Origin: a phage
Reading direction: 5' to 3' (one strand)
Assembly: GCA_014687725.1 (NCBI GenBank)
Contig: GCA_014687725.1_4094.1
DNA: 64,000 bases
Of this stretch, positions 23 through 55,194 are shown one piece after another (position 1 is the first letter of the stretch; each line of letters opens with the position of its first letter). A program made the position numbers and the translations under genes. The notes below the pieces were generated by a model. That model was not told where the DNA came from. It did not search any database and worked only from the letters and a program-made list of their open reading frames with translations.

Positions 23-224
<202 letters not shown>

Positions 225-228
225 ATTA

Positions 229-300
<72 letters not shown>

Positions 301-321
301 CATAAACAATGAGAGGTATAA

Positions 322-11152: not shown

Positions 11153-11574
11153 GAGGCTATAATAAGATTTGTATTTTTGTATTTTTAGTTTGTGCATTCA
11201 ATTCGTTTGGTTACTACTGTACAGAAAATAATATTTCATATGGTTTAAATCCTTTGTGGTTTACAATTTCCAATGTAGCACAAATTGGTATTGCTCTTAT
11301 GTCTGCACTTATGTTCTGTCCAATTGTCACTATGGATACTGATCATGAAAGGCTTGGATTTCTCCGTGATACTGGAGACGAACCTTACAGTAGATTGATT
11401 GTGTTGTATCCATTTATTGTTATTTTAGGTACTAACATCCAACTTGGGTCATTATCTAATAGTGTTACATCAGCAGCTATTGCTATATTTGCATTCACAT
11501 TTTTTATGGTACACAAATCAGTACTTAATTGGTATATCACAAAAATGGCAGAAGAAGGTACTAAAAATACTTGA
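11149..11574 (+). CDS. hypothetical membrane protein (141 aa)
   Basis: Multiple hydrophobic segments; overlapping start. Confidence 0.5.
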   Translation: MRGYNKICIFVFLVCAFNSFGYYCTENNISYGLNPLWFTISNVAQIGIALMSALMFCPIVTMDTDHERLGFLRDTGDEPYSRLIVLYPFIVILGTNIQLGSLSNSVTSAAIAIFAFTFFMVHKSVLNWYITKMAEEGTKNT

Positions 11575-11599
11575 CATAATTTAGTATGTTATATATAAT
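11571..11599 (+). promoter_or_regulatory. sigma70-type promoter TTGACA-N17-TATAAT
   Basis: TTGACA 11571-11576, TATAAT 11594-11599, upstream of ATG 11634. Confidence 0.55.
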
Positions 11600-11633: not shown

Positions 11634-11885
11634 ATGAACATCGATAAGGTCAAAGAACTTAGTGCTGCACTAATTAAGAATGAAGAAGTTTGTGAAGAAC
11701 TTCGCAGTACTATCAAAGTTGAGTACGCACGACTCCAAGGTATGCTTCAAGAATCAGAATGGGTAGTAACTAAATCTATCGAAGCAATCTATAAGGATAT
11801 TGAATCCCTTTTCAACAAGAAAAGTAAGATTGAATCTGATTCATATAACAAACGTAAAGAGTTATCTACTGCACTTGGTATCTAA
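11634..11885 (+). CDS. hypothetical protein (83 aa)
   Basis: ORF downstream of promoter, AAGGAA RBS. Confidence 0.5.
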   Translation: MNIDKVKELSAALIKNEEVCEELRSTIKVEYARLQGMLQESEWVVTKSIEAIYKDIESLFNKKSKIESDSYNKRKELSTALGI

Positions 11886-11959
11886 AAGTATTTTACATAA
11901 CAAATAATATGGAGTACAATGTGCTCCTAATTTAATTATCAGCTAAAAAGGAAAACATT

Positions 11960-12220
11960 ATGAAATCTATTCTCGTTGCAGTTAACCTGGTTGCTTCCCC
12001 ATCTTTCAACTTCAAACAAGTTGTTGCTGATAATCTGAAGAAGATCTGTCCAAACGCTGAATTGACTTTCTGTGTATTTGATTCAGAAAAAGTAACTAAA
12101 GTTGATCTAAACTATCTTTTGAACGAAGTACAAAGCGTTTCTGGTGAAAGTAACTTAAAAGTTCTTCATGAGATTGCAGAAGATTATGATGACACTCTAG
12201 TAATTTCGGAGAAATTCTAA
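11960..12220 (+). CDS. hypothetical protein (86 aa)
   Basis: ORF with AAGGAAA RBS. Confidence 0.5.
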   Translation: MKSILVAVNLVASPSFNFKQVVADNLKKICPNAELTFCVFDSEKVTKVDLNYLLNEVQSVSGESNLKVLHEIAEDYDDTLVISEKF

Positions 12221-12225
12221 ATCAA

Positions 12226-12645
12226 ATGATTACATTCATTCAGTACTTAATCATTAAATTTTTTGGCTATTATACGATTGAGGGCAAAGCTACGCTTGCA
12301 CATAAAATCTTTGTAGCATTATGTACGGGTGATTATGACGTATTGAATAAGTACTGTAAATCTAAAGAATGTATTGATATAATGGCACTTCGTATCTATG
12401 AGTGCCGATCCAATAGATACAATTTTTACCAGTACAGATTTGATAAAGAAGAATTTGATAGCATCAAAATGCTAAAGAATTTATGTAACAATAAAAAGAA
12501 TATGCATATATCAGAATTTGTTGCTTTGTATTTTTATTTAAAAAGTTCATTGTATATGAACACGATGCAAAGATTCGATACTAGAATTAATGTATTCACC
12601 GATAAAGAATTTTATATATACGATAAATTCTTAGATAAGGTTTAA
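12226..12645 (+). CDS. hypothetical protein (139 aa)
   Basis: ORF in cluster. Confidence 0.5.
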   Translation: MITFIQYLIIKFFGYYTIEGKATLAHKIFVALCTGDYDVLNKYCKSKECIDIMALRIYECRSNRYNFYQYRFDKEEFDSIKMLKNLCNNKKNMHISEFVALYFYLKSSLYMNTMQRFDTRINVFTDKEFYIYDKFLDKV

Positions 12646-12646
12646 T

Positions 12647-13144
12647 ATGACAACTGTTTATATTGATAAACGATTAAATTTATTGATTACCGATTCTAGA
12701 GTTACGTCAACTATACCACGAAACTTATTTGGTTTTTTCCCACTAAGACCAAAATATCAATATGGAGTTGTTAATCAAAAAACTTTATATGTACATGACC
12801 GTTTATTCAGTGCTAGTGGGTCAGTAAGTGAAATTGATAAAGTACTGGATTGGTTAATTAATAAAGTACCAGTTATACCTGACAGAAAGTTAAGTTGCCA
12901 TTGTGTGCTTCTTTCTAAAGATTATGTTATTCATATGATTTTAACTAAAGGAAAGTTTATTAAAAAACTTGAATATCTACATGAAGACTACACTTTCTTT
13001 ATGGGAAGTGGTGGAGAATACATGCTAGATGCTGCTATTCATGAAGAACATACAACTTTATATGATAAAGTGTTTAGTACTTTCATGGATGTGCATAACC
13101 ATGATTGCTTCACAGATGATAATATTAATGTATATCGATTTTGA
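12647..13144 (+). CDS. hypothetical protein (165 aa)
   Basis: ORF in cluster. Confidence 0.55.
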   Translation: MTTVYIDKRLNLLITDSRVTSTIPRNLFGFFPLRPKYQYGVVNQKTLYVHDRLFSASGSVSEIDKVLDWLINKVPVIPDRKLSCHCVLLSKDYVIHMILTKGKFIKKLEYLHEDYTFFMGSGGEYMLDAAIHEEHTTLYDKVFSTFMDVHNHDCFTDDNINVYRF

Positions 13145-13165: not shown

Positions 13166-14131
13166 GTGAAAAAGCTTGATTTAAATACAATTGCCGAAGA
13201 AGTTCTGGATGAATGTTTTGCTAATGAAGAAGTCAACACACTAGAAGCCTTAGATTTCGTTGAAGATAAAGATGAAAATGAAGGTAAAGTACAAAGCAGT
13301 TTCAAATATAATATTACACTTAAGCGACCACCAAATGTTTCCAATGAAGATCTAATTCGTGATATTCAAGCTGGTATCAATGTAAAGAAAAACACTGAAC
13401 TGTTAGTTCGTTACAATTATGGACTTATTATTGATGTAGCAAGTAAATGTACTTGTTATATCCCATTTGAAGATAAGATTTCATATGGTGTTGAGGGGTT
13501 CATGAGAGCACTAAAAACCTTTGATCTTAATAAGAATGTGAAGTTCATTACCTATGCTTCTTCTAGTATTTACATGACAGTTTATAACGAAAGTTCTGAC
13601 GCTAACTATATGGTACACTTCCCACGTTATATGAGTGTTCATAAGATCAAAGTAAAAAGATTCTGCCAGGAATATATGCGTAAACATGGTGTTCGCCCAA
13701 CTCCTGAAATAATCTCAGAGGGTACTGGGATTGAGATTCAGCATGTTAATAACTGTTTGTTATTTCAAAGCGAATACACTTCTCTGGATGCACCATTAGA
13801 CGGTGTTACCGATGGTACACTAGGTGACATTATTCATTCACCTGCTTCTGATTTTAACCTCAATGTTGATAGTATTCGTGCACCTTTACGTTATGCTATC
13901 AATGAACTGACTAACGAATTGAGTACTAAAGAACGTGAGATTATCCAGCGTGTTCATGGTCTAGGTGAATATGAACCTGAAACGCTTCGTGAGATTGCTG
14001 ATAATGGTTTTGTTGATGATAATGGAAAATATGTTAAATCCCGTTCATCAATACATCGAAAGTACAGTGAAGCTATGCAAAAGCTTAAGAAGCTAGTACT
14101 TGCAAAAGGGTACGAATACGAAGATTTCTAA
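13166..14131 (+). CDS. sigma-70 family RNA polymerase sigma factor-like protein (321 aa)
   Basis: Region 2-like GVEGFMRALKTFDLNKNVKFITYASSSIYMTV, region 3-like KHGVRPTPEIISEGTGIEIQHV, region 4-like EREIIQRVHGLGEYEPETLREIADNG; GTG start with GGAG RBS. Confidence 0.65.
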   Translation: MKKLDLNTIAEEVLDECFANEEVNTLEALDFVEDKDENEGKVQSSFKYNITLKRPPNVSNEDLIRDIQAGINVKKNTELLVRYNYGLIIDVASKCTCYIPFEDKISYGVEGFMRALKTFDLNKNVKFITYASSSIYMTVYNESSDANYMVHFPRYMSVHKIKVKRFCQEYMRKHGVRPTPEIISEGTGIEIQHVNNCLLFQSEYTSLDAPLDGVTDGTLGDIIHSPASDFNLNVDSIRAPLRYAINELTNELSTKEREIIQRVHGLGEYEPETLREIADNGFVDDNGKYVKSRSSIHRKYSEAMQKLKKLVLAKGYEYEDF

Positions 14132-14139
14132 AGAAAAAA

Positions 14140-14164
14140 GGTTGGCTTATGCCAACCTTTTTTT
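14140..14164 (+). terminator. rho-independent terminator
   Basis: Hairpin GGTTGGC-TTAT-GCCAACC followed by T7. Confidence 0.75.
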
Positions 14165-14165
14165 A

Positions 14166-14689
14166 TGGGATGAAGTAAAAGTTTGTGATATAATTATCTT
14201 GTACAATTCTGTTGGCATGATATTCATGTACCTGATCCACTCGAAAACGTAGAGGGCAGTTGAGCAGTCCGACAGTGCGAACAGCAAAAGAAACCCGTTA
14301 GATGTGGGCATAGTTTGAACCCCTCACGGCAATGCGGCTGTATAAAGAACCACGTTAGGATAGCTGGTGGTTCCTTGATAGACATATAAGGATAACACCT
14401 TACGAATTATCTAAGGGAGAGTTATCAAATTTTGTACAGGAAAGTTGCGTCCAAAATTTGAGTACTCACATTAAGTATTTGATTGCATAGATACTTAATG
14501 AAGATACACTATGTTTAAAAGTGTAGACCGTCATATGAAACTGAAGTAGAGAGAAACAGGATGACCCGCTTTCGCACTCGTTATGAGTAATCTTCAATGC
14601 AATAGCTCTGATACCATCAGCGTCAAATTTCCCTCCTTGTGGGGGGGAAGAAAAATCCCTTCCTCAAATCCCGTCAATATTAAAAGTCC
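14166..14689. other. ORF-free, relatively GC-rich region; candidate structured noncoding RNA or regulatory region
   Basis: No ORF of 60 aa or more on either strand over about 520 bp despite dense coding elsewhere; internal hairpins such as GAACCAC...GTGGTTC. Confidence 0.3.
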
Positions 14690-14718
14690 TTGACAGTTAT
14701 TAATCATTCGCGTAGAAT
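14690..14718 (+). promoter_or_regulatory. sigma70-type promoter TTGACA-N17-TAGAAT
   Basis: TTGACA 14690-14695, TAGAAT 14713-14718. Confidence 0.5.
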
Positions 14719-15219: not shown

Positions 15220-16008
15220 ATGAGCACTATCGATGAACTGATTCAACGGAATTCAAAATATTACCAACCATCAGAAATTGTGGATAACATTACTAAATCT
15301 GAGTTTGGACCGAACACACGCAAACTCATTCATGTAATGTCACGTGATGGCTTTAAATGTGATTGTTGTGGTGAATCAAATGTAGTATTCACTTTACACA
15401 AGCACAGTACTAAAGAACGTTATAAATTCAGACCTTATGTACTTAAAGGGAAACGCCTTGTACGCATGACGTTAGACCATAATGTACTGGACTGTCTTCA
15501 GGGCGGTAATGATAAAGAGAACATGACTGCACTGTGTGAAGATTGTAACGCATTACGCCAGCATAAGTTTGCTGAATACAGTGAGTTTAAACACTGGTAT
15601 CATAACGCGGATCGTTCAATCGAGCCTGACGTCAACTACTGCTTCATTGAGTACATTAAGAATGCCAAAGATACATACATTCTTAAATCAATGTCACCTA
15701 TTACCGTGTTTCCTGAGAACCTATTCACTACATTAAAGAATAGTTTTATTGTAGGTGATATTGATGCATTCAAGTATTTTGACAAAGGTGCAAAACATTT
15801 TGAAATTCAATGTCTTAGTACTGCACTATGTGAACTCATTAAAATTTACATAAAAGAGTATTTGGGTATTGACAATGTACGTGTACCAGAGTATACTTTT
15901 TCTATTGAATTCGATTGTGAATCAATCAAAGAGTTTGGAATTCTTTTCAATAAACAAATAGAACTTGCAATTCAACACGAAATCAAGTACTATACTACTA
16001 ACATTTAA
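15220..16008 (+). CDS. HNH-family endonuclease (homing-endonuclease-like), 262 aa
   Basis: Cys pairs CDCCG and CEDCN flanking DHNVLDCLQGGNDKENMTALC (HNH beta-beta-alpha-metal motif). Confidence 0.7.
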   Translation: MSTIDELIQRNSKYYQPSEIVDNITKSEFGPNTRKLIHVMSRDGFKCDCCGESNVVFTLHKHSTKERYKFRPYVLKGKRLVRMTLDHNVLDCLQGGNDKENMTALCEDCNALRQHKFAEYSEFKHWYHNADRSIEPDVNYCFIEYIKNAKDTYILKSMSPITVFPENLFTTLKNSFIVGDIDAFKYFDKGAKHFEIQCLSTALCELIKIYIKEYLGIDNVRVPEYTFSIEFDCESIKEFGILFNKQIELAIQHEIKYYTTNI

Positions 16009-22412: not shown

Positions 22413-22604
22413 ATGTTGATTTATCAAGGTGATAATATTCGTGTTATGCAGCATCCCTACTTACAAATCTTTGATGTGCAGCAGTATATGGAAGGTGATG
22501 ACCCAAGAACCTATGGTCGTAAGTATGATTACTTCACTGTAAAGCAGTGTAACAATATTAACGAAGTACGACAATTAGTTCAAGAACTTCAAAACAAAGG
22601 TTGA
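22413..22604 (+). CDS. hypothetical protein (63 aa)
   Basis: AAGGA RBS before internal ATG; IYQGD motif shared with previous ORF. Confidence 0.4.
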   Translation: MLIYQGDNIRVMQHPYLQIFDVQQYMEGDDPRTYGRKYDYFTVKQCNNINEVRQLVQELQNKG

Positions 22605-22630
22605 CTTCGGTCAGCCTTTTTTGTTATAAT
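22599..22630 (+). terminator. terminator hairpin GGTTGAC-TTCG-GTCAGCC plus T-run; TTGACT in stem with TATAAT 18 nt downstream (terminator-promoter cassette)
   Basis: Hairpin 22599-22616, T-run 22617-22622, TATAAT 22625-22630; overlaps stop codon at 22602-22604. Confidence 0.7.
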
Positions 22631-32898: not shown

Positions 32899-32933
32899 AA
32901 GGGTTGACTTCGGTCAGCCCTTTTTGCTATAAT
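32899..32933 (+). terminator. terminator-promoter cassette (GGGTTGAC-TTCG-GTCAGCCC, T5, GC-TATAAT)
   Basis: Hairpin 32901-32920, T-run 32921-32925, TATAAT 32928-32933. Confidence 0.75.
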
Positions 32934-34180: not shown

Positions 34181-34215
34181 AAGGGTTGACTTCGGTCAGC
34201 CCTTTTTGCTATAAT
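34181..34215 (+). terminator. terminator-promoter cassette
   Basis: Hairpin 34183-34202, T-run, TATAAT 34210-34215. Confidence 0.75.
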
Positions 34216-35901: not shown

Positions 35902-35936
35902 AAGGGTTGACTTCGGTCGGCCCTTTTTGCTATAAT
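35902..35936 (+). terminator. terminator-promoter cassette (variant GTCGGCCC arm)
   Basis: Hairpin 35904-35923, T-run, TATAAT 35931-35936. Confidence 0.7.
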
Positions 35937-48399: not shown

Positions 48400-49590
48400 T
48401 TACAATTGTCTAGGTGTATCCAGAACATATCTATTTGTACTAGGTCCACCATCATCATACGTTCCGGTTGAATATATATTTTTCATATCAGCAGTTAGAA
48501 AAGTACGATACGAACCGCGATATATTTTTATTTTATCATACATAGAATATGATATTTCTGCTGGCATTGGACATATAGTAAATCTACCAATAGTAACATT
48601 AGAACCAACACCTAATGTACCAGCATAACCACTCGCATTTAAACCAGTTGCATATACACCTGTACTCGTAACTAGTATACTAGATTGTGCTGCATATCCA
48701 GTATGGATTGAATAATAAGTTCCTGATGGTAATGTAGTACTATTATTCCCTAATACTGCTAGTGCTGTACTATTCGTAGTGTTATTACCCCATGCCCCAT
48801 TATTAGCGTTACCACCTACTAGGAACTGACGTGCTCCTGTACTTGGATTCTCTACTAAAGCACTGACAGCACCAATTGAACAACCAGTATATTGTAATGT
48901 TTTTGTATATGTGGTACTTGGCTTATACAAAGTATATTCATTAAATGGTGTCCATGTGGTACTAGTACTTATGCCAGATGTACTACCACCAATATATAAA
49001 TTATTTTGTGTATCAAAAAACATTACACAGTAATTTGTTGACTGTATTTGTGCAATATCTACATCTGGTGTTACCGCTTTAACAAATGAACCATCTGATA
49101 TTTGATAAGTAGTTCCTGTACCATCTGCGAATTGTCTAGCACTATTCCACCCTGTACTCCATATTGTATTATTATCCATTAAGAAAGTAAACCACGTAGT
49201 ACCTGCATACATCTGTTTAATTGAAGTACTTGAACTTTGTGTGTACAAATTTTCAATATATTGGTTATAACTTAAAAATGATGTAGTACTAGTTTCTAAA
49301 CCAATATGACTACCATATCCACAATAAAAATAATTTAAGTCCTTATCTTGAACTAACAAAGTTCCTTGTGTCATCCAGCAATCTTTGACATTTTCTCTAA
49401 TTAATGTCCACGACCTTACTGCATTATTATTTCCTCTACCAAACTTCCCAAAACTATTACTGCCTCGTGCGTATAGTTGACCATCAGTATAAAGTACAAC
49501 AACATCAGTATCAGTTGGTATTATTTTCTTAATTTGTAGTGGTACAGGCACAATATTCCCATAATTCATCATTCTTGCAAAAGGTAACAT
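48400..49590 (-). CDS. RCC1-repeat beta-propeller protein (unit 8)
   Basis: MLPFARMMNYGNI; motifs GWNSARQF, GGNANNGAWGNN. Confidence 0.7.
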   Translation of the reverse strand: MLPFARMMNYGNIVPVPLQIKKIIPTDTDVVVLYTDGQLYARGSNSFGKFGRGNNNAVRSWTLIRENVKDCWMTQGTLLVQDKDLNYFYCGYGSHIGLETSTTSFLSYNQYIENLYTQSSSTSIKQMYAGTTWFTFLMDNNTIWSTGWNSARQFADGTGTTYQISDGSFVKAVTPDVDIAQIQSTNYCVMFFDTQNNLYIGGSTSGISTSTTWTPFNEYTLYKPSTTYTKTLQYTGCSIGAVSALVENPSTGARQFLVGGNANNGAWGNNTTNSTALAVLGNNSTTLPSGTYYSIHTGYAAQSSILVTSTGVYATGLNASGYAGTLGVGSNVTIGRFTICPMPAEISYSMYDKIKIYRGSYRTFLTADMKNIYSTGTYDDGGPSTNRYVLDTPRQL

Positions 49591-49655
49591 AATTCCCTCC
49601 TTTATTCATTATACTATATTTAATACAAATAAGAATGCCAGTATCAAGTACTGGC
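49591..49655 (-). promoter_or_regulatory. array intergenic module (hairpin overlaps stop of unit 9)
   Basis: GCCAGTA...TACTGGC around 49637-49655. Confidence 0.55.
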
Positions 49656-50831
49656 ATTGATTGTTGGAAGTGGGAACTCTTTCATGACAGATGAACTACT
49701 TGCTGAAATATTATCAGGGGATTTCCCCGCGTAGTATAATTTATTATTAATGTACATATACAACGTTGCATCGTTCCCAGCTACAAGTGATTCACTTTTC
49801 TTAAAATTAACACCATCAGGTAAAATTGCTTCAACAAATGAACCAGAATTAATTGTACTGTTATTTGCCAATTGACCATTGTTATTATAACCAGTACTAT
49901 AAATTTTACCAGAGCTATAATATACCAGGCCACGGGATGAGATGTTTTCAATTCGAATGAATTCACTATCATCTGGAACGGTTTTCGATAACGTTGGCGT
50001 TAATTTATAACCCCCTGCTGTAGTATTATTACCCAACTGACCATCAGCTTGATAGCCCATTGTATACATAGGACATGATTCTGGTGTACCTTTAGTTATA
50101 ATACCAATATAACTCGCACTACAAAAAACGTCTATAGCTTCGGTAACAGGTGTGCCCTTATATTGAACCCAAGGAAATATATATGTGTTTTGAACTCCAT
50201 TTCCCAACGTTCCATGAGATGTTGTCCCAGTACGCCATATTGTATTATCTAGTTTAATAATCCAGTTAGAGGGTGTGATGGATGAACAGAATTTTTTAAC
50301 ATTATCGACTAAAAATGTAAATTTATTAAAATATGATGCAGTGTTTAAACCAAACTTTGAATTTTTATTATCACCTAACAAATATAAACTATTATCAGTA
50401 CCTAAAATCAAAGCATAATCAAGACCTACATATATCTCTTTGATTTTTGAAATACCAAATTGTGTAAAATAACTCGTACATTCAGTGAATGTTGTTACAG
50501 TATTTGTTGTATTATTACCTAGCCATTTATCTAAACCACTATAAAAGAATCTATCATCATTTGTTCGTATTAGACAAAACCCATTCCCTGTACTGCACCA
50601 AAAATCTTTAACATTGCTATATATTTTTGTCCATTCAGTAACCTGTGTAGTATTCCCTAACCCAAAAATTCCACCATTCTGAAGACCCATAGCCCACACT
50701 GATCCATTTACATCCAGCAGCATTGTGCATGTAAATGAATAACCAACTGCTGGGGTGACTAATTTAGTAAAATTGGGAACATATGGAATGACTTTATTCC
50801 CGTACTTAACCATTCTTGTAAAAGGTAACAT
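49644..50831 (-). CDS. RCC1-repeat beta-propeller protein (unit 9, 395 aa)
   Basis: MLPFTRMVKYGNK at internal ATG 50831; motifs GYQADGQLGNN, GYNNNGQLANN. Confidence 0.75.
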   Translation of the reverse strand: MLPFTRMVKYGNKVIPYVPNFTKLVTPAVGYSFTCTMLLDVNGSVWAMGLQNGGIFGLGNTTQVTEWTKIYSNVKDFWCSTGNGFCLIRTNDDRFFYSGLDKWLGNNTTNTVTTFTECTSYFTQFGISKIKEIYVGLDYALILGTDNSLYLLGDNKNSKFGLNTASYFNKFTFLVDNVKKFCSSITPSNWIIKLDNTIWRTGTTSHGTLGNGVQNTYIFPWVQYKGTPVTEAIDVFCSASYIGIITKGTPESCPMYTMGYQADGQLGNNTTAGGYKLTPTLSKTVPDDSEFIRIENISSRGLVYYSSGKIYSTGYNNNGQLANNSTINSGSFVEAILPDGVNFKKSESLVAGNDATLYMYINNKLYYAGKSPDNISASSSSVMKEFPLPTINAST

Positions 50832-50901
50832 AATTCCTCCTTTATTCATTATACTATATTTAATCAAAAAATAAAAGCCAGTATCAAGTACTGGCTTTAA
50901 T
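50832..50901 (-). promoter_or_regulatory. array intergenic module
   Basis: Conserved unit with GCCAGTATCAAGTACTGGC hairpin. Confidence 0.6.
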
Positions 50902-52050
50902 TCATTGTATAAATGACATATCAACTTCGGTATATCTTGTAGTGTACTGCCCAGAACTTCCACCCATTACTAGATTGGAAAAACCAGTATAAAATAACTT
51001 CCCTTCATCTGTGAGAATCAAACTACCGATGTTATTCAGTACTAAACTGTAAGAACTATTAAAATTTTCATAAGACTTGGTATAATAGAACTGATTTGTA
51101 AGATTACCAACACCCAATTGCCCACCAGTGTTAACCCCAGATGCAAATATTGTAGTCCCAAATCTGAGAATATGTGAAGCCATATTACCAACACAACAGT
51201 ATATATTCTGTACATCCGAATTCAATAAAGTTGGTGTTGTGTATTGCTTAAGTGTTGTGCCTGTGCCGAATTCATTACCATATGATACTCCATATTGTGT
51301 ACCACAAGCGTACAATTTATTATCATCTTTAATAAAAAATGTACTCTGATAACTTACATCGACATCTATAACATTAGTCTGTATTCTAACAACACCAGTA
51401 CTAGCAGTTTGATTGCCTGTCCCTAACTGATAGTAAGTGTTAATACCACAACCCCATAATGTATTATCTTCTTTTAGGTATATGTTACCAACAGCTTTTT
51501 TTACCGATGATATGGCTTCAATCTTAACAAAGGCGTTAAATGAATTTGTATTTGTGCCATTACCAAAAGATGATCTGGTTGATGTGCTGTTTGTTCCGCA
51601 GCAATATAAAGTACCATCAGTTGTTATCAAATTCACTTTAAGATCACTGTAACTACTCATGTATTTTATATCAGAAACATTAATACCACTGGATGTTATC
51701 CATGAAGTACAATCTGTCCACGTGTTATAATATGCACCTGAACCAGAAAACGCACTCGGACTTCCAGTTATAAACACTTTTCCAGTACCGTCTTCTTCAT
51801 ATAATTGACAACCACTACTGTTATTTTCCAAAAGGACTCTTTTAACATTAGTCGCACTAAGAATAAATTTACTCGACGCTACACCAGTTCCAGTACCCTG
51901 ACTGACTGCCGCTGATGCATACAAATTTTTCGTGTATGTATCATGAAAATACATAGCACTACCGCCGGAATATATTTTAAAACGTGTACTAGGATCAGGC
52001 GGGTTAGGTGCAATATTTCCGTACTTAATCATTCTTCCAAAAGGTAACAT
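50902..52050 (-). CDS. RCC1-repeat beta-propeller protein (unit 10)
   Basis: MLPFGRMIKYGNI; motifs GVNTGGQLGVGN, GINTYYQLGTGN. Confidence 0.8.
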   Translation of the reverse strand: MLPFGRMIKYGNIAPNPPDPSTRFKIYSGGSAMYFHDTYTKNLYASAAVSQGTGTGVASSKFILSATNVKRVLLENNSSGCQLYEEDGTGKVFITGSPSAFSGSGAYYNTWTDCTSWITSSGINVSDIKYMSSYSDLKVNLITTDGTLYCCGTNSTSTRSSFGNGTNTNSFNAFVKIEAISSVKKAVGNIYLKEDNTLWGCGINTYYQLGTGNQTASTGVVRIQTNVIDVDVSYQSTFFIKDDNKLYACGTQYGVSYGNEFGTGTTLKQYTTPTLLNSDVQNIYCCVGNMASHILRFGTTIFASGVNTGGQLGVGNLTNQFYYTKSYENFNSSYSLVLNNIGSLILTDEGKLFYTGFSNLVMGGSSGQYTTRYTEVDMSFIQ

Positions 52051-52121
52051 ATTTCCCTCCTTTATTCATTATAGTATATTTAATACAAATAAGAATGCCA
52101 GTATCAAGCACTGGCATTATG
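52051..52121 (-). promoter_or_regulatory. array intergenic module
   Basis: Conserved unit. Confidence 0.6.
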
Positions 52122-53231
52122 TTATTTTGGTAAATCAATTTTAGTAAAGACTGCAACATCCTCGATTGCACCTGGAATGGCGTAATACGATCCAGTACTA
52201 TACACATCTCCATTTTTGGTTAATATCGATGTCAAACCATCACTAAAAAGAACATCTCTAATCTCACTAACTTCAACGGGTAATTGTAAATTGGTAGCAC
52301 TATATATAGCACCAGTTTGAGAATTGTTTAATCCCAAACCACGGTTCGCCCCAACACCCTTCTGATATGTACTAGTAATTACCATTTGTGTAGCAGTATT
52401 TAATGCAGGTGAATTCGTCATAAACAACGGAGAACTATTAGGCAAAGTACTTACAGGAACTGCACGGAATGTAGTCGTACCTGAACTAAGAAAGTTTGGA
52501 GTTTGACCACATACGAAATATGATGTACCATTATAGTAATTTAATGCATTACCACCAATGGCTGCATCGATTACACCAGAACTACGCAATCCCCAAGTGT
52601 TAATTTGTGTTTGGTTCCCCGTACCATGCTGCCCACTACTATTCCATCCAGAACTATATAGCTTATTATCTAATGTAAGATACATACTATCATTCGCATT
52701 GGTCATTACTTTACGAACGTTCGTAGCACATTGAGTTAATGTATAAATTGATGATGAACCAATACCCAAAGAACCACGATATCCATTATCTCCTGCACCA
52801 TAGAGTACTGAATTAGTGCTAAGTACAAATATTAAACCATTTGTACATACAATATTAGCAATTTCACTTACTGGTATAGCATTGGTAAACCAATTAGTCC
52901 TTTCAACTAATACAGTACTGTAAGAAGTAGTCGTAGAAGATGAGAACCAGTACGTTTGACCTGATGTCCATATAGTATTATCATTTTTAATAATAACAAG
53001 TGTACGATCACCCACGAAAAAATTAGAAACATCTGCACTTACTAATATCCATGAAGATACCGTGTTGGTATTACCATTTCCAGATTCACCACCTTGATTT
53101 CTACCTATGTAATATAAATCATGTGAATCAGTCAATAAGAATTGACCTTGTGTAGAAGCACCAACTTTAATTATATTTTTAGGACCAGGTACAATATTTC
53201 CGTACTTAACCATTCTTCCAAAAGGTAACAT
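52122..53231 (-). CDS. RCC1-repeat beta-propeller protein (unit 11, 369 aa)
   Basis: MLPFGRMVKYGNI at internal ATG 53231; motif GWNSSGQHGTGN. Confidence 0.75.
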   Translation of the reverse strand: MLPFGRMVKYGNIVPGPKNIIKVGASTQGQFLLTDSHDLYYIGRNQGGESGNGNTNTVSSWILVSADVSNFFVGDRTLVIIKNDNTIWTSGQTYWFSSSTTTSYSTVLVERTNWFTNAIPVSEIANIVCTNGLIFVLSTNSVLYGAGDNGYRGSLGIGSSSIYTLTQCATNVRKVMTNANDSMYLTLDNKLYSSGWNSSGQHGTGNQTQINTWGLRSSGVIDAAIGGNALNYYNGTSYFVCGQTPNFLSSGTTTFRAVPVSTLPNSSPLFMTNSPALNTATQMVITSTYQKGVGANRGLGLNNSQTGAIYSATNLQLPVEVSEIRDVLFSDGLTSILTKNGDVYSTGSYYAIPGAIEDVAVFTKIDLPK

Positions 53232-53304
53232 AAATCCCTCCTTATTCATTATACTATATTTAATACAAAAAAGAAAAGCCAGCATCAAGTACTGGCATAT
53301 CAAA
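53232..53304 (-). promoter_or_regulatory. array intergenic module
   Basis: Conserved unit with GCCAGCATCAAGTACTGGC hairpin. Confidence 0.6.
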
Positions 53305-54453
53305 TCACTGCAAAAATGACATATCGACTTCGGTATAATTAAGAACGTTCTGTCCAGCAATACCTCCCATTACTACAATTGAAGCCCCACAATAATATAA
53401 CTTCGAAGTGTCAGTAAGTATAAGTGAACCAGATGGGGTGCGTACCAAATTACACGAAGTATTAAACGAAGTATATGAAGGGGTATAAGAGTACTGATTA
53501 ATATTATTACCAACACCTAATTGACCAGACGAGTTGCTTCCAGATGCATAAAGTACTTCATCACCTTTAACTATATGTGACGCCATGTTACCAACACAAG
53601 TATATAAACTATAAACTCCTGAACTCAATAATGTTGGAGTTTTGTATTGTATATCTGTAGATGAAGAAGTACCACCTGTGCCAAATTCGTTCCCGTATTG
53701 TGCACCGAACTGTTTACCACATGCGTACAAATTATTATCTGATTTAATAAAAAATGTACTCTGATAACTTACATCAAAATCTATAACATCCGAAGCAATC
53801 ATCGTCACCCCAGTAATAGAAGTTTGATTACCTGTACCTAACTGATAGTAATAGTTAAAACCACAACCCCATAAAGTATTATCTTCTTTTAGGTATATGT
53901 TACCAACTGCCTTTTTAACCGAAGTTATAGTATCTACCCTTTTGAATGTGTTAAAAGAATTAATGTTTGTACCATCACCAAATGATGATAGGTTAGAGTT
54001 ATTGTTAGCTCCACAACAATACAATGTACCATCGTTTGTTATCAAATTTACCTTCATATCATTAAAACTACTCATGTATTTTATATCAGAAACATTAATA
54101 CCACCTGATGTTATCCACGTAGTACATTCCGTCCACAAAGTTTTTCTATCAGTTACACCAGTGAATGCCTTCGTGTTACCAGTGATAAAAACTTTTCCAG
54201 TACCTTTCTCTTCATACAATTGACAATCACTACTGTTATTTTCCAATAGAACTCGTTTAACATTCTCCGCACTAAGAATAAATTTACTCGACGAAACACC
54301 TGTTCCAGTACCCCAATTCGTCGCAGAAGATGCATACAACTTATCAGTATAAGTATCATGAAGATACATGGAATCACTGGAATATATTTTAAAACGTCCA
54401 TCATCACCAGGGGCAATATTCCCGTACTTAATCATTCTAACAAAAGGTAACAT
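53305..54453 (-). CDS. RCC1-repeat beta-propeller protein (unit 12, 382 aa)
   Basis: MLPFVRMIKYGNI; motifs GSNSSGQLGVGN, GFNYYYQLGTGN; close paralog of unit 10. Confidence 0.8.
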   Translation of the reverse strand: MLPFVRMIKYGNIAPGDDGRFKIYSSDSMYLHDTYTDKLYASSATNWGTGTGVSSSKFILSAENVKRVLLENNSSDCQLYEEKGTGKVFITGNTKAFTGVTDRKTLWTECTTWITSGGINVSDIKYMSSFNDMKVNLITNDGTLYCCGANNNSNLSSFGDGTNINSFNTFKRVDTITSVKKAVGNIYLKEDNTLWGCGFNYYYQLGTGNQTSITGVTMIASDVIDFDVSYQSTFFIKSDNNLYACGKQFGAQYGNEFGTGGTSSSTDIQYKTPTLLSSGVYSLYTCVGNMASHIVKGDEVLYASGSNSSGQLGVGNNINQYSYTPSYTSFNTSCNLVRTPSGSLILTDTSKLYYCGASIVVMGGIAGQNVLNYTEVDMSFLQ

Positions 54454-54501
54454 ATTTCCCTCCTTATTCATTATATCATATTTACCCCATAAAGAAAACC
54501 C
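54454..54501 (-). promoter_or_regulatory. upstream region of array unit 12 (TATAAT and SD on minus strand)
   Basis: Minus strand GATATAATGAATAAGGAGGGAAAT then ATG. Confidence 0.5.
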
Positions 54502-54530
54502 TTGACATCCTTTCAGTACTGGTGTACTAT
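54502..54530 (+). promoter_or_regulatory. divergent promoter TTGACA-N17-TACTAT for plus-strand small-gene array
   Basis: TTGACA 54502-54507; AAGGAG RBS before ATG 54556. Confidence 0.5.
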
Positions 54531-54555
54531 AGAAGGAATATAAGGAGAACTACAC

Positions 54556-54783
54556 ATGACAAATACTCTTAAGCACTACCTCAATACTCTAAATGAACTA
54601 GAGTACGGGGAATTTCTCGCGGATAGTTCGTGGCTAATTGAGCTAAAAAATTATAATAGTCCAGGATGCACCCTTATGATGAACAATGCAATTGATACCC
54701 TCATTGTGAGTATTTTACACAGCAACATCTGCGGGGATAGCAATAAACAATTATCAAAAATCTTAGTACTGCTATCTATATGA
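54556..54783 (+). CDS. small paralog array protein (divergent member), 75 aa
   Basis: First gene of tandem array; hydrophobic C-terminus ILVLLSI. Confidence 0.5.
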   Translation: MTNTLKHYLNTLNELEYGEFLADSSWLIELKNYNSPGCTLMMNNAIDTLIVSILHSNICGDSNKQLSKILVLLSI

Positions 54784-54983
54784 ACATTGAACAGTACTAC
54801 ATCGATGCACTACCAACAAAAGGTCTACGAGAAAGCCTACTGTATACACAAAATACTTTTATACACTACAAACGTTGTCCTAAACTCCTGAACTCGTACA
54901 GGAGTAATATCATAAGAAATGCTTTACAAGGGGCAGAAAGTATGCAATACTATTATATCCTTGCCCTTTTAATCGAGTACTAA
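54780..54983 (+). CDS. small paralog array protein, 67 aa
   Basis: MNIEQYYIDAL ... YYYILALLIEY. Confidence 0.55.
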   Translation: MNIEQYYIDALPTKGLRESLLYTQNTFIHYKRCPKLLNSYRSNIIRNALQGAESMQYYYILALLIEY

Positions 54984-54984
54984 T

Positions 54985-55194
54985 ATGAATACTGAACATA
55001 AAGAATTCTACACCAAATACCTTAGCAACGAAGAACAATTGTTTCTAAGGAGTGTATCACCTGTAAGTACCAATACTCACTTCGGTAGAGATTGCTTTAA
55101 TAATTGTATACGTAGTACTCTAGAAGCAATCGAATGCAATAACAAAAATATTATGTACTCAGGTTTAATAGGACTAATCTACTTCTATGAATAA
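54985..55194 (+). CDS. small paralog array protein, 69 aa
   Basis: MNTEHKEFYTKYL ... FNNCIRSTL ... LIGLIYFYE; close paralog of 57998. Confidence 0.6.
   Translation: MNTEHKEFYTKYLSNEEQLFLRSVSPVSTNTHFGRDCFNNCIRSTLEAIECNNKNIMYSGLIGLIYFYE

What the first reader, a model, noticed from the sequence alone, without database searches (positions are those of the whole stretch)
13166..14131. Phage-encoded sigma-70-family sigma factor in an accessory region
The 321-aa ORF shows the order and spacing of sigma-70 regions 2, 3 and 4 (...VKFITYASSSIYMTV..., ...RPTPEIISEGTGIEIQ..., ...ETLREIADNG...) after an acidic N-terminal segment. A full-length sigma-70-type factor would be unusual in a T4-type genome, which classically uses a small divergent late sigma. 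It is followed by a strong terminator, an ORF-free structured region and an HNH endonuclease gene, suggesting horizontal acquisition.
Basis: partly seen in the sequence, partly recalled or inferred. Interest (0 to 1): 0.65.

Follow-up and report, generated by a model that had tools for sequence, protein, structure and literature searches.

The report
Jumbo-phage sigma factor beside structured RNA
The ORF is a real but already annotated sigma factor of a 350-kb E. coli jumbo phage, and the "ORF-free" DNA after it is the less ordinary part: a conserved ~480-nt structured RNA gene that matches no Rfam family.

Summary
Window 13166-14131 encodes a 321-aa sigma-70-family protein with regions 2, 3 and 4 in order, after an acidic N-terminus. 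The window is 99.6-99.7% identical to Escherichia phages 121Q and phAPEC6 (Asteriusvirus). [quoted passage not shown]

It is not a recent horizontal acquisition. It is conserved in five named genera and some unclassified relatives of RaK2-like phages, and it has no close cellular relative. It coexists with a T4 gp55-type late sigma elsewhere in the genome.

The gene ends an early operon that starts at a perfect host sigma-70 promoter. My best inference, not proven, is that it directs host RNA polymerase to a phage-specific "middle" promoter class, TG(A/G)GAC-N17-TATAAT. This class has 21 sites in 121Q, all on one strand. It precedes replication genes, the late-sigma gene and the RNA gene next door.

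The "ORF-free structured region" (14203-14679) is a conserved structured RNA. It has four paralogues per genome and strong covariation support, and I found no Rfam match and no mention in the literature I searched. The sigma factor is known. The promoter assignment and the RNA family are the new leads.

The parts
11571..11599 (+). Perfect host sigma-70 consensus promoter (TTGACA-17-TATAAT), the likely start of the early operon that ends with the sigma gene
   Evidence: The window's first ~36 kb hold about 15 such promoters, all on the + strand.
11634..13144 (+). Four small upstream genes of the same operon (121Q gp163-gp166). The last one (12647-13144) is weakly HslV-peptidase-like.
13166..14131 (+). 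Sigma-70-family sigma factor gene, 321 aa, the orthologue of 121Q gp167
13166..13315 (+). Acidic N-terminal segment (aa 1-50, net charge about -9). It contains a conserved helix, KKL-L--I--EVLDECF. The structure model has low confidence here.
13403..13603 (+). Sigma region 2 (aa ~80-146). F419, K426, Y430, N383 and L386 of sigma-70 are kept. W433/W434 become S/S, Q437 becomes M and T440 becomes Y.
   Evidence: Sigma-70 residue numbers are counted from the alignment and assigned from my own knowledge.
13625..13843 (+). Sigma region 3 (aa ~154-226)
13865..14104 (+). Sigma region 4 (aa ~234-313). An insertion of about 6-7 aa (DDNGKY region) precedes the recognition helix. In that helix R584 is kept, E585 becomes S, R588 becomes H and Q589 becomes R.
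   Evidence: for the sequences. The residue correspondences in region 4.2 are my hand alignment to the E. coli sigma-70 sequence recalled from memory.
14133..14164 (+). Intrinsic terminator closing the sigma operon
   Evidence: The consensus scan missed it, probably because its A/T extension consumes the T-tail.
14166..14194 (+). Phage-specific 'middle-type' promoter: TGGGAT box, 17 nt, then TATAAT with an upstream TG (TGTGATATAAT)
14203..14679 (+). Conserved ~480-nt structured non-coding RNA gene, one of four paralogues in the phage genome
   Evidence: No Rfam match.
14690..14718 (+). Host-type promoter (TTGACA-17-TAGAAT) for the downstream small ORFs and the HNH gene
15220..16008 (+). HNH endonuclease gene (orthologue of 121Q gp170), probably a free-standing homing-type endonuclease

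Best explanation
The ORF is the RpoD-like sigma factor of an Asteriusvirus jumbo phage.

Shown:
- It has the sigma-2, sigma-3 and sigma-4 domains.
- It lies at the end of a + strand gene run that starts at a perfect host sigma-70 promoter and ends at a strong terminator.
- The genome also carries a T4 gp55-type late sigma.

Inferred mechanism:
1. Unmodified host RNA polymerase makes the protein early in infection.
2. The protein binds host core polymerase in place of sigma-70.
3. It directs the polymerase to a phage-specific middle promoter class, TG(A/G)GAC-N17-TATAAT, usually with TG upstream of the -10 element.
4. That class sits in front of replication and nucleotide-metabolism genes, a tRNA gene, four structured-RNA genes (one is the immediate neighbour at 14203-14679) and the late-sigma gene.
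5. The result is a three-step cascade: host sigma-70, then this sigma, then the gp55-like sigma.

Confidence by step: sigma-70-family sigma factor, about 0.95; early expression, about 0.75; assignment to the TG(A/G)GAC promoters, about 0.5.
For: Identity as a sigma factor.

Early position: a consensus sigma-70 promoter at 11571 and a terminator at 14133-14164. The homologue in phage CBB was likewise placed in a predicted early region (PMC5259590).

A discrete promoter class: the regex G[AG]GAC[AG]-N15-17-TANAAT has 21 hits in 121Q, all 21 on the + strand, against 0-8 (mean about 3) in 20 shuffles counted on both strands. The sites precede ssb, primase, exonuclease, topoisomerase, the DNA polymerase region, tRNA-Gly and the gp55-like sigma gene.

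Every copy of the RNA gene whose 5' end was recovered, in isolates and in IMG/VR contigs, carries this promoter.

The box differs between phage genera: TG(A/G)GAC in Asteriusvirus and 7t3-like phages, TG(A/G)AAC in Mimasvirus and Eneladusvirus. Sigma-70 region 4 is, to my knowledge, essentially invariant among their enterobacterial hosts (own knowledge). If so, a phage-encoded reader is implied.

The recognition helix of sigma region 4.2 changes in step with the box. It reads R-x-S-(I/L)-H-R in 121Q and 7t3, and K-A-T-L-S-R in BF, CBB, XbC2, Yen9-04 and one metagenomic contig. This holds although the 7t3 sigma is overall closer to BF/CBB (46%) than to 121Q (39%).

The residues that form the -11A and -7T pockets of sigma-70 are kept, which fits a TATAAT-like -10 element (residue roles from my own knowledge).

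T4-like late motifs, ATAAATA, precede structural genes.
Against: - There is no experimental evidence, and none was found in the papers I read.
- The middle promoters carry a perfect extended -10 element (TGnTATAAT). Host sigma-70 can use this without a -35 element, so host polymerase plus a phage activator that binds the box would explain the same data.
- The sigma residues that read the TG extension and the -12 base in sigma-70 (H455, E458, Q437, T440) are not kept.
- The covariation between helix and box amounts to about one evolutionary change.
- The one Alcyoneusvirus promoter I looked at (TTGAATA-N17-TATAAT) fits neither box, although its sigma has the R..H helix.
- The copy of the box next to the sigma gene is a variant (TGGGAT).
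Confidence: 0.6

Rival explanations
1. Host sigma-70 reads the middle promoters through their extended -10 element. A separate phage DNA-binding protein, a MotA-like activator, reads the TG(A/G)GAC box. The phage sigma then serves some other, unidentified promoter set.
For: All class members carry TGnTATAAT, the architecture of T4 middle promoters (own knowledge). The sigma lacks the canonical residues for TG recognition. A helix-turn-helix regulator gene sits two genes upstream of the sigma gene in CBB and XbC2.
Against: The dyad scan found no further bipartite promoter-like motif (the only other strong dyad, GTTACCTT-N16-AGTACGGGA, was not followed up) that would need another sigma. The box occupies the -35 position at sigma-like spacing and changes together with the sigma's own recognition helix. 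I did not search for a MotA or AsiA homologue.
Confidence: 0.25
2. The protein is a surrogate housekeeping sigma. It reads the same TTGACA/TATAAT promoters as the host factor and keeps early transcription going after host sigma-70 is inactivated.
For: Consensus sigma-70 promoters are very abundant in the early region. The -10 pocket residues are conserved. Some records name the gene rpoD.
Against: Three of the four main -35-reading residues are changed and there is an insertion before the recognition helix. The RpoD equivalog models score far below their cut-offs (88 bits against 354).
Confidence: 0.1
3. The protein is a decoy or anti-sigma-like factor. It binds core polymerase or a host factor but does not open promoters.
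For: The Trp433/Trp434 pair, which is important for DNA melting by sigma-70, is replaced by Ser-Ser. The acidic N-terminus could mimic DNA.
Against: Group 3 sigmas also lack this Trp pair and are active (own knowledge). Y430 and the base-pocket residues are kept. All three DNA-contacting domains have been retained across widely diverged lineages (as low as about 30% identity).
Confidence: 0.05

Closest known systems
E. coli RpoD and RpoS (group 1 and 2 sigma-70-family factors)
   Same: Same order of regions 2, 3 and 4. They are the best sequence and fold matches. Core-binding and -10 pocket residues are partly kept.
   Different: About 21-26% identity in the fold matches. Pfam finds no region 1.1 or 1.2 domain. 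W433/W434, Q437, T440, H455, E458, E585, R588 and Q589 are all changed. There is an insertion in region 4.2. The RpoD and RpoS equivalog cut-offs are missed by a wide margin.
RpoD-like sigma of RaK2-like (group 2) jumbo phages: 121Q gp167, CBB_513, the GAP32 orthologue of CBB_513, RaK2 ORF244
   Same: This is the same gene family. It is 99-100% identical to the 121Q, PBECO4 and phAPEC6 proteins and 30-46% identical to those of other genera, with the same N-terminus and length.
   Different: Nothing material. No member of the family has been characterised experimentally in the papers I read (PMC5259590, PMC7824862, PMC11895373, PMC13070987).
Bacillus phage SPO1 gp28 and coliphage phiEco32 gp36 (phage sigmas that switch host polymerase to middle genes; own knowledge)
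   Same: The proposed logic is the same: an early phage-encoded sigma-70-family protein replaces the host sigma and turns on the next temporal class.
   Different: No detectable close sequence relationship. Those proteins are shorter. Their function is proven, whereas here it is inferred.
T4 gp55/gp33 late system and the MotA/AsiA middle system
   Same: The genome has a true gp55 homologue and T4-like late motifs. The middle promoters resemble T4 middle promoters in having an upstream box plus an extended -10 element.
   Different: This ORF is not gp55. T4 uses sigma appropriation rather than a second full sigma to read its middle promoters.
Large phage-borne structured RNAs such as GOLLD and ROOL (Rfam families), for the neighbouring RNA
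   Same: It is several hundred nucleotides long, carried by a phage, multi-helix, supported by covariation and of unknown function.
   Different: No covariance-model match to any of the 4227 Rfam families, even at E <= 1. It has 3-5 paralogues per genome and is restricted to contigs of RaK2-like jumbo phages.

Membership tests
Sigma-70 family (superfamily level) | Regions 2, 3 and 4 present in that order | tested here: met
   Pfam r3 scores above its cut-off. r2 and r4 each fall within 1 bit below theirs. TIGR02937 scores 44.7 against a cut-off of 42.9. The alignment to sigma-70 residues 373-578 is continuous.
Sigma-70 family (superfamily level) | Sigma fold (helical sigma-2, sigma-3 and sigma-4 domains) | tested here: met
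   AlphaFold pLDDT is 78-89 over most of aa 50-320, but it drops at the inter-domain linkers (residues 150-152 and 222-236 are below 50). The top 50 Foldseek PDB hits are all sigma factors, with E from 1e-11 to 1e-9.
Sigma-70 family (superfamily level) | Binds core RNA polymerase and confers promoter-specific initiation | not testable with these tools
   Needs biochemistry.
Primary sigma (RpoD, group 1) | Region 1.1/1.2, the Trp433/Trp434 melting pair, conserved 2.4 and 4.2 recognition residues, equivalog score | tested here: not met
   RpoD_Cterm scores 88 bits against a cut-off of 354. W433/W434 are S/S. Q437, T440, E585, R588 and Q589 are changed. The 'rpoD' label in some records is too specific.
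RpoS (group 2) | Equivalog-level similarity | tested here: not met
   TIGR02394 scores 70.5 bits against a cut-off of 378.7.
Group 3 sigmas (FliA/WhiG, SigB/F/G) | Subfamily-level similarity | tested here: not met
   Scores are 55-56 bits against cut-offs of 190-234. It shares with them only the absence of the Trp pair.
T4 gp55 late sigma | Homology to gp55 | tested here: not met
   The gp55 homologue is a different gene, 121Q gp591, which matches cyanophage gp55 proteins. It lies outside this window.
PHROG 351 / RaK2-like jumbo-phage sigma clade | Full-length similarity to the phage sigma family | tested here: met
   PHROG 351 scores 2.6e-60 over aa 1-317. Of 91 matching phage records, 73 match over at least 80% of the query; the RaK2-like jumbo phages match at 30-100% identity.
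Any Rfam RNA family (for 14203-14679) | Covariance-model match | tested here: not met
   There is no hit in the RNA at gathering score or at E <= 1, either in the window copy or in five divergent copies.

The most novel reading that the evidence does not exclude
The sigma gene, the TG(A/G)GAC-N17-TATAAT promoters and the neighbouring RNA form one phage-specific 'middle' regulon. On this reading, the ~480-nt RNA is an undescribed family of large structured RNAs. It has 3-5 anciently diverged paralogues per genome, each kept in its own syntenic site across several genera of RaK2-like jumbo phages. Its function could be catalytic or as a ribonucleoprotein scaffold.
Probability: 0.5. Interest if true: 0.7.

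Novelty: already known. Interest (0 to 1): 0.42.

Why it matters
The sigma factor adds nothing new as a gene. It is annotated in dozens of genomes and is regarded as typical of this phage group. What remains open is what it does.

The analysis gives a concrete, testable assignment. It defines a promoter class with 21 sites in 121Q. It proposes a three-sigma cascade in which this factor switches on replication genes and the late sigma. It also identifies a candidate specificity contact: residue 588 of sigma-70 numbering against the fourth base of the box.

The neighbouring RNA may matter more. Large structured RNAs supported by covariation are rare. This one is multi-copy, conserved more strongly than the adjacent proteins, and confined to jumbo phages that are being developed for therapy.

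Tried and rejected
- **IMG/VR pattern 1.** An exact search with an Asteriusvirus-specific RNA motif found nothing. A more general motif then found 48 loci.
- **Rfam.** Gathering and permissive searches gave only tRNAs, terminator look-alikes and weak chance matches.
- **Single-sequence folding.** Folding the intergenic region alone was not significant (z = -1.05). Only comparative data show the structure.
- **Terminator scan.** The consensus scan missed the sigma terminator. Direct folding shows it.
- **PA5oct ncRNAs.** The RNA-seq-defined ncRNA001 and ncRNA002 of PA5oct are not detectably related to this RNA (nhmmer, no hit at E <= 100).
- **Protein partner for the RNA.** None was found. The ORF downstream of the RNA in CBB has no homologue in 121Q and no informative domain. 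HNH genes recur within 1-3.5 kb of several copies, but not as orthologues.
- **Bacterial genomes.** Only 3 hold the RNA; the one whose title was seen (L123) is a 213-kb Enterobacteriaceae MAG contig, possibly phage DNA binned into a MAG.
- **Alcyoneusvirus test.** Testing the helix/box rule there was inconclusive: one promoter, TTGAATA-N17-TATAAT.
- **Horizontal acquisition.** Rejected on distribution, composition and the lack of a close cellular relative.

Full report
**What the window is.** A 4.5-kb stretch around the finding is 99.6-99.7% identical to Escherichia phages phAPEC6 and 121Q, and 97-99% identical to about 20 other Asteriusvirus jumbo phages of 310-384 kb. Window position equals 121Q position minus 76101 near the finding; small indels shift the offset elsewhere. 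In 121Q the ORF is gp167, annotated 'RNA polymerase sigma factor'. By annotation the 121Q genome carries T4-like core genes: gp17-, gp20-, gp23-, gp43-, gp41- and gp44-like. 'T4-type' is therefore right only in the distant sense that applies to RaK2-like jumbo phages.

**Check of the observation.**
- The ORF 13166-14131 has a GTG start, an AGGAG ribosome-binding site upstream and a length of 321 aa.
- Pfam places region 2 at aa 80-140, region 3 at aa 162-226 and region 4 at aa 251-279. Region 3 is above its curated cut-off. Regions 2 and 4 are each within one bit below theirs.
- The NCBIfam sigma-70 superfamily model passes its cut-off, and RpoD_Cterm scores 6e-25. PHROG 351 scores 2.6e-60 over the full length.
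- phmmer aligns aa 74-279 with almost no gaps to E. coli sigma-70 residues 373-578.
- An AlphaFold model built from 27 sequences has mean pLDDT 70.5, about 78-89 over most of aa 50-320 with low-confidence linkers, and is disordered over residues 1-49. Its 50 best Foldseek matches in the PDB are sigma-S, sigma-A and sigma-70 in polymerase complexes.
- Residues 1-50 are acidic: 14 D/E against 5 K/R.
- The terminator is real.

**What kind of sigma it is.** It is not an RpoD or RpoS orthologue. The equivalog models score 64-88 bits against cut-offs of 354-555.

I counted residue positions from the alignment and assigned residue roles from my own knowledge of sigma-70.
- Kept: D403, F419, K426, Y430, N383 and L386 (core contact and the -11A/-7T pockets).
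- Changed: W433/W434 are Ser-Ser, Q437 is M, T440 is Y, H455 is Y and E458 is V.
- In region 4.2, by my hand alignment to the sigma-70 sequence recalled from memory, R584 is kept, E585 is S, R588 is H and Q589 is R. An insertion of about 6-7 residues precedes the recognition helix.

The family is sharply delimited. In the 5.8-billion-protein collection there are 12 relatives at 47-100% identity, mostly on large phage-size contigs. Below those come only cellular sigmas at 35% identity or less. In the phage collection it is found in Asteriusvirus, Alcyoneusvirus, Mimasvirus, Eneladusvirus, 7t3-like and Xanthomonas jumbo phages at 30-100% identity. This pattern, together with unremarkable G+C content, argues against recent horizontal acquisition.

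**Context and timing.** A perfect TTGACA-17-TATAAT promoter at 11571-11599 precedes five co-oriented genes, of which the sigma gene is the last. The hairpin at 14133-14164 closes the unit. About 15 such consensus promoters, all on the + strand, fill the first ~36 kb of the window. This is typical of an early region. The CBB paper reached the same conclusion for the homologous region of that phage (PMC5259590). Early expression is an inference from this layout.

**Promoter classes in the whole genome.** I assembled 121Q from nine fetched pieces and counted over-represented hexamer dyads. Besides host-type TTGACA/TATAAT sites, two further sets stand out.
- A repeated AAAAAGTACTTGCAA...GTATAATGTTTTACATC module.
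- A distinct class, (T)G(A/G)GACA-N16-TATAAT, usually with TG upstream of the -10 element.

The regex for this second class has 21 hits, all on the + strand, against 0-8 in shuffles counted on both strands. The sites lie upstream of these genes:
- the single-strand binding protein (two sites), primase, an exonuclease and topoisomerase II;
- tRNA-Gly, a nudix gene and the DNA polymerase region;
- the gp55-like late sigma gene gp591;
- three copies of the RNA described below. The fourth copy, the one in this window, has the variant TGGGAT.

Structural genes instead carry T4-like ATAAATA motifs. gp591 is a true gp55 homologue. The CBB and GAP32 papers had noticed the equivalent 'divergent RpoD-like' promoter, with -35 element TGAAACG, in front of replication genes and the gp55-like gene.

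1. The box sits where a -35 element would, at a constant spacing.
2. The box differs between phage genera. It is TG(A/G)GAC in Asteriusvirus and 7t3-like contigs, and TG(A/G)AAC in Mimasvirus, Eneladusvirus and related metagenomic contigs. Their enterobacterial hosts share an essentially invariant sigma-70 region 4 (own knowledge).
3. The sigma's region 4.2 helix changes in parallel. It is R-x-S-(I/L)-H-R in the first group and K-A-T-L-S-R in the second. This holds although the 7t3 protein is overall nearer to the second group.

In sigma-70, residue 588 is the one that reads the third base of TTGACA (own knowledge). That base corresponds to the position that differs between the two boxes.

This is suggestive, not decisive.
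- It amounts to roughly one evolutionary change.
- The promoters also have a perfect extended -10 element that host sigma-70 could use, so an activator model of the T4 MotA type remains open.
- One Alcyoneusvirus promoter did not fit either box.

I put the assignment at about 0.5.

**The 'ORF-free structured region'.** The 625 nt after the terminator are 96% identical in phages whose sigma protein is only 59% identical. They are still about 70% identical in Erwinia, Serratia, Yersinia, Cronobacter, Pectobacterium and Xanthomonas phages, with 2-5 matching places per genome, mostly 4-5.

121Q has exactly four copies, all on the + strand and all in ORF-free gaps. This holds even where the neighbouring genes are on the other strand. 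Only one copy lies in the window, at 14203-14679.

I aligned 16 copies: four paralogues and 12 other phages.
- RNAalifold gives 72 pairs, 43 of them with compensatory double changes.
- Counted independently, 96.6% of cells pair, against 38-45% when partners are slid by 1-3 columns.
- 42 pairs show changes on both sides, against 8-15 in the slid controls.
- The covariation score is 0.47, against 0.06-0.12.
- No shuffle out of 500 reaches the observed values.
- Several helices are long-range.

Distribution and status:
- Of 48 IMG/VR loci found with a conserved 22-nt pattern, 44 hold the RNA (45 nhmmer matches, one locus matched in two pieces). Most are on contigs of 350-370 kb, with some shorter fragments.
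- Each copy whose 5' end was recovered is preceded by the middle-type promoter.
- No Rfam family matches.
- The papers I searched do not mention it. One GenBank record labels it only 'repeat_region'.
- It is not related to the ncRNAs reported for PA5oct.
- Its function is unknown and I found no constant protein neighbour.

**Verdict.** The gene is already known by annotation, and its role is untested. The most useful outputs are the explicit promoter assignment and the recognition that the neighbouring 'structured region' is a conserved, multi-copy structured RNA gene.

Noticed in passing
window 14203-14679 (+); paralogues at 121Q 192805-193312, 247487-248043 and 326644-327144: A conserved ~480-nt structured RNA with four paralogues per genome, strong covariation and no Rfam match. 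Each copy whose 5' end was recovered, in all phages examined, has its own TG(A/G)GAC or TG(A/G)AAC plus TGnTATAAT promoter.
   Followed up: yes
whole window (50 sites; cluster at 59024-60621) and the whole 121Q genome: The palindrome CAGTACTG occurs 194 times in 121Q against about 5 expected. AGTACT occurs 903 times against about 104. The sites lie in coding and non-coding DNA, and often in the spacer of early promoters (...TCAGTACTGTATAAT). The motif also shows up in the few fetched stretches from other genera (BF, GAP32, Hallingskeid), though it was not counted there. Palindromes are usually avoided in phage genomes, so this suggests a binding site for a phage protein.
   Followed up: partly
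window 59080-60680: A stretch of about 1.6 kb (2 kb in 121Q) with no annotated gene. It is rich in CAGTACTG sites, holds a short 24-nt tandem repeat (59850-59941), and has one middle-type promoter (59322-59349) and one host-type promoter (59408-59435). It may be a regulatory, origin or terminus-proximal region.
   Followed up: partly
window 60685-64000 (continuing to about 121Q 155000): An array of near-identical modules. Each has an A-rich upstream element, GTACTTGCAA, N14, GTATAATGTTTTACATC, a G+C-rich 5' hairpin, a ribosome-binding site and a small ORF. It looks like a battery of very strong early promoters with stabilised leaders.
   Followed up: partly
window about 40990-55150, minus strand: Fourteen of fifteen consecutive annotated genes are RCC1-like or 'DNA condensation' paralogues (121Q gp234-gp248), some of them short fragments. 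The cumulative GC skew turns at about 40 kb, where the coding strand switches.
   Followed up: no
window 15220-16008; 121Q gp513; loci L059, L069, L070, L073: HNH endonuclease genes lie within about 0.5-3.5 kb of several RNA copies in different phages, and endonuclease VII lies next to copy 3. This could mean that homing endonucleases target these conserved RNA genes, or it could be chance.
   Followed up: partly
window 12647-13144: The gene immediately upstream of the sigma gene is weakly similar to HslV-family peptidases (PHROG 1040, 1.3e-06). 121Q also has a separately annotated HslV-like gene, gp475.
   Followed up: no
window 36-301 and 1811-1884: Four tRNA genes (Ser-ACT, Met, Asn, Thr). 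In 121Q a middle-type promoter precedes a further tRNA-Gly gene just upstream of the window.
   Followed up: no
window 32904-32933, 34186-34215, 35907-35936 (and 22601-22630): Four nearly identical promoter-like sites, TTGACTTCGGTCAGCCCTTTTTGCTATAAT. Here the -35 element is part of a small hairpin (GACTTCGGTC), which suggests combined terminator-promoter modules.
   Followed up: no
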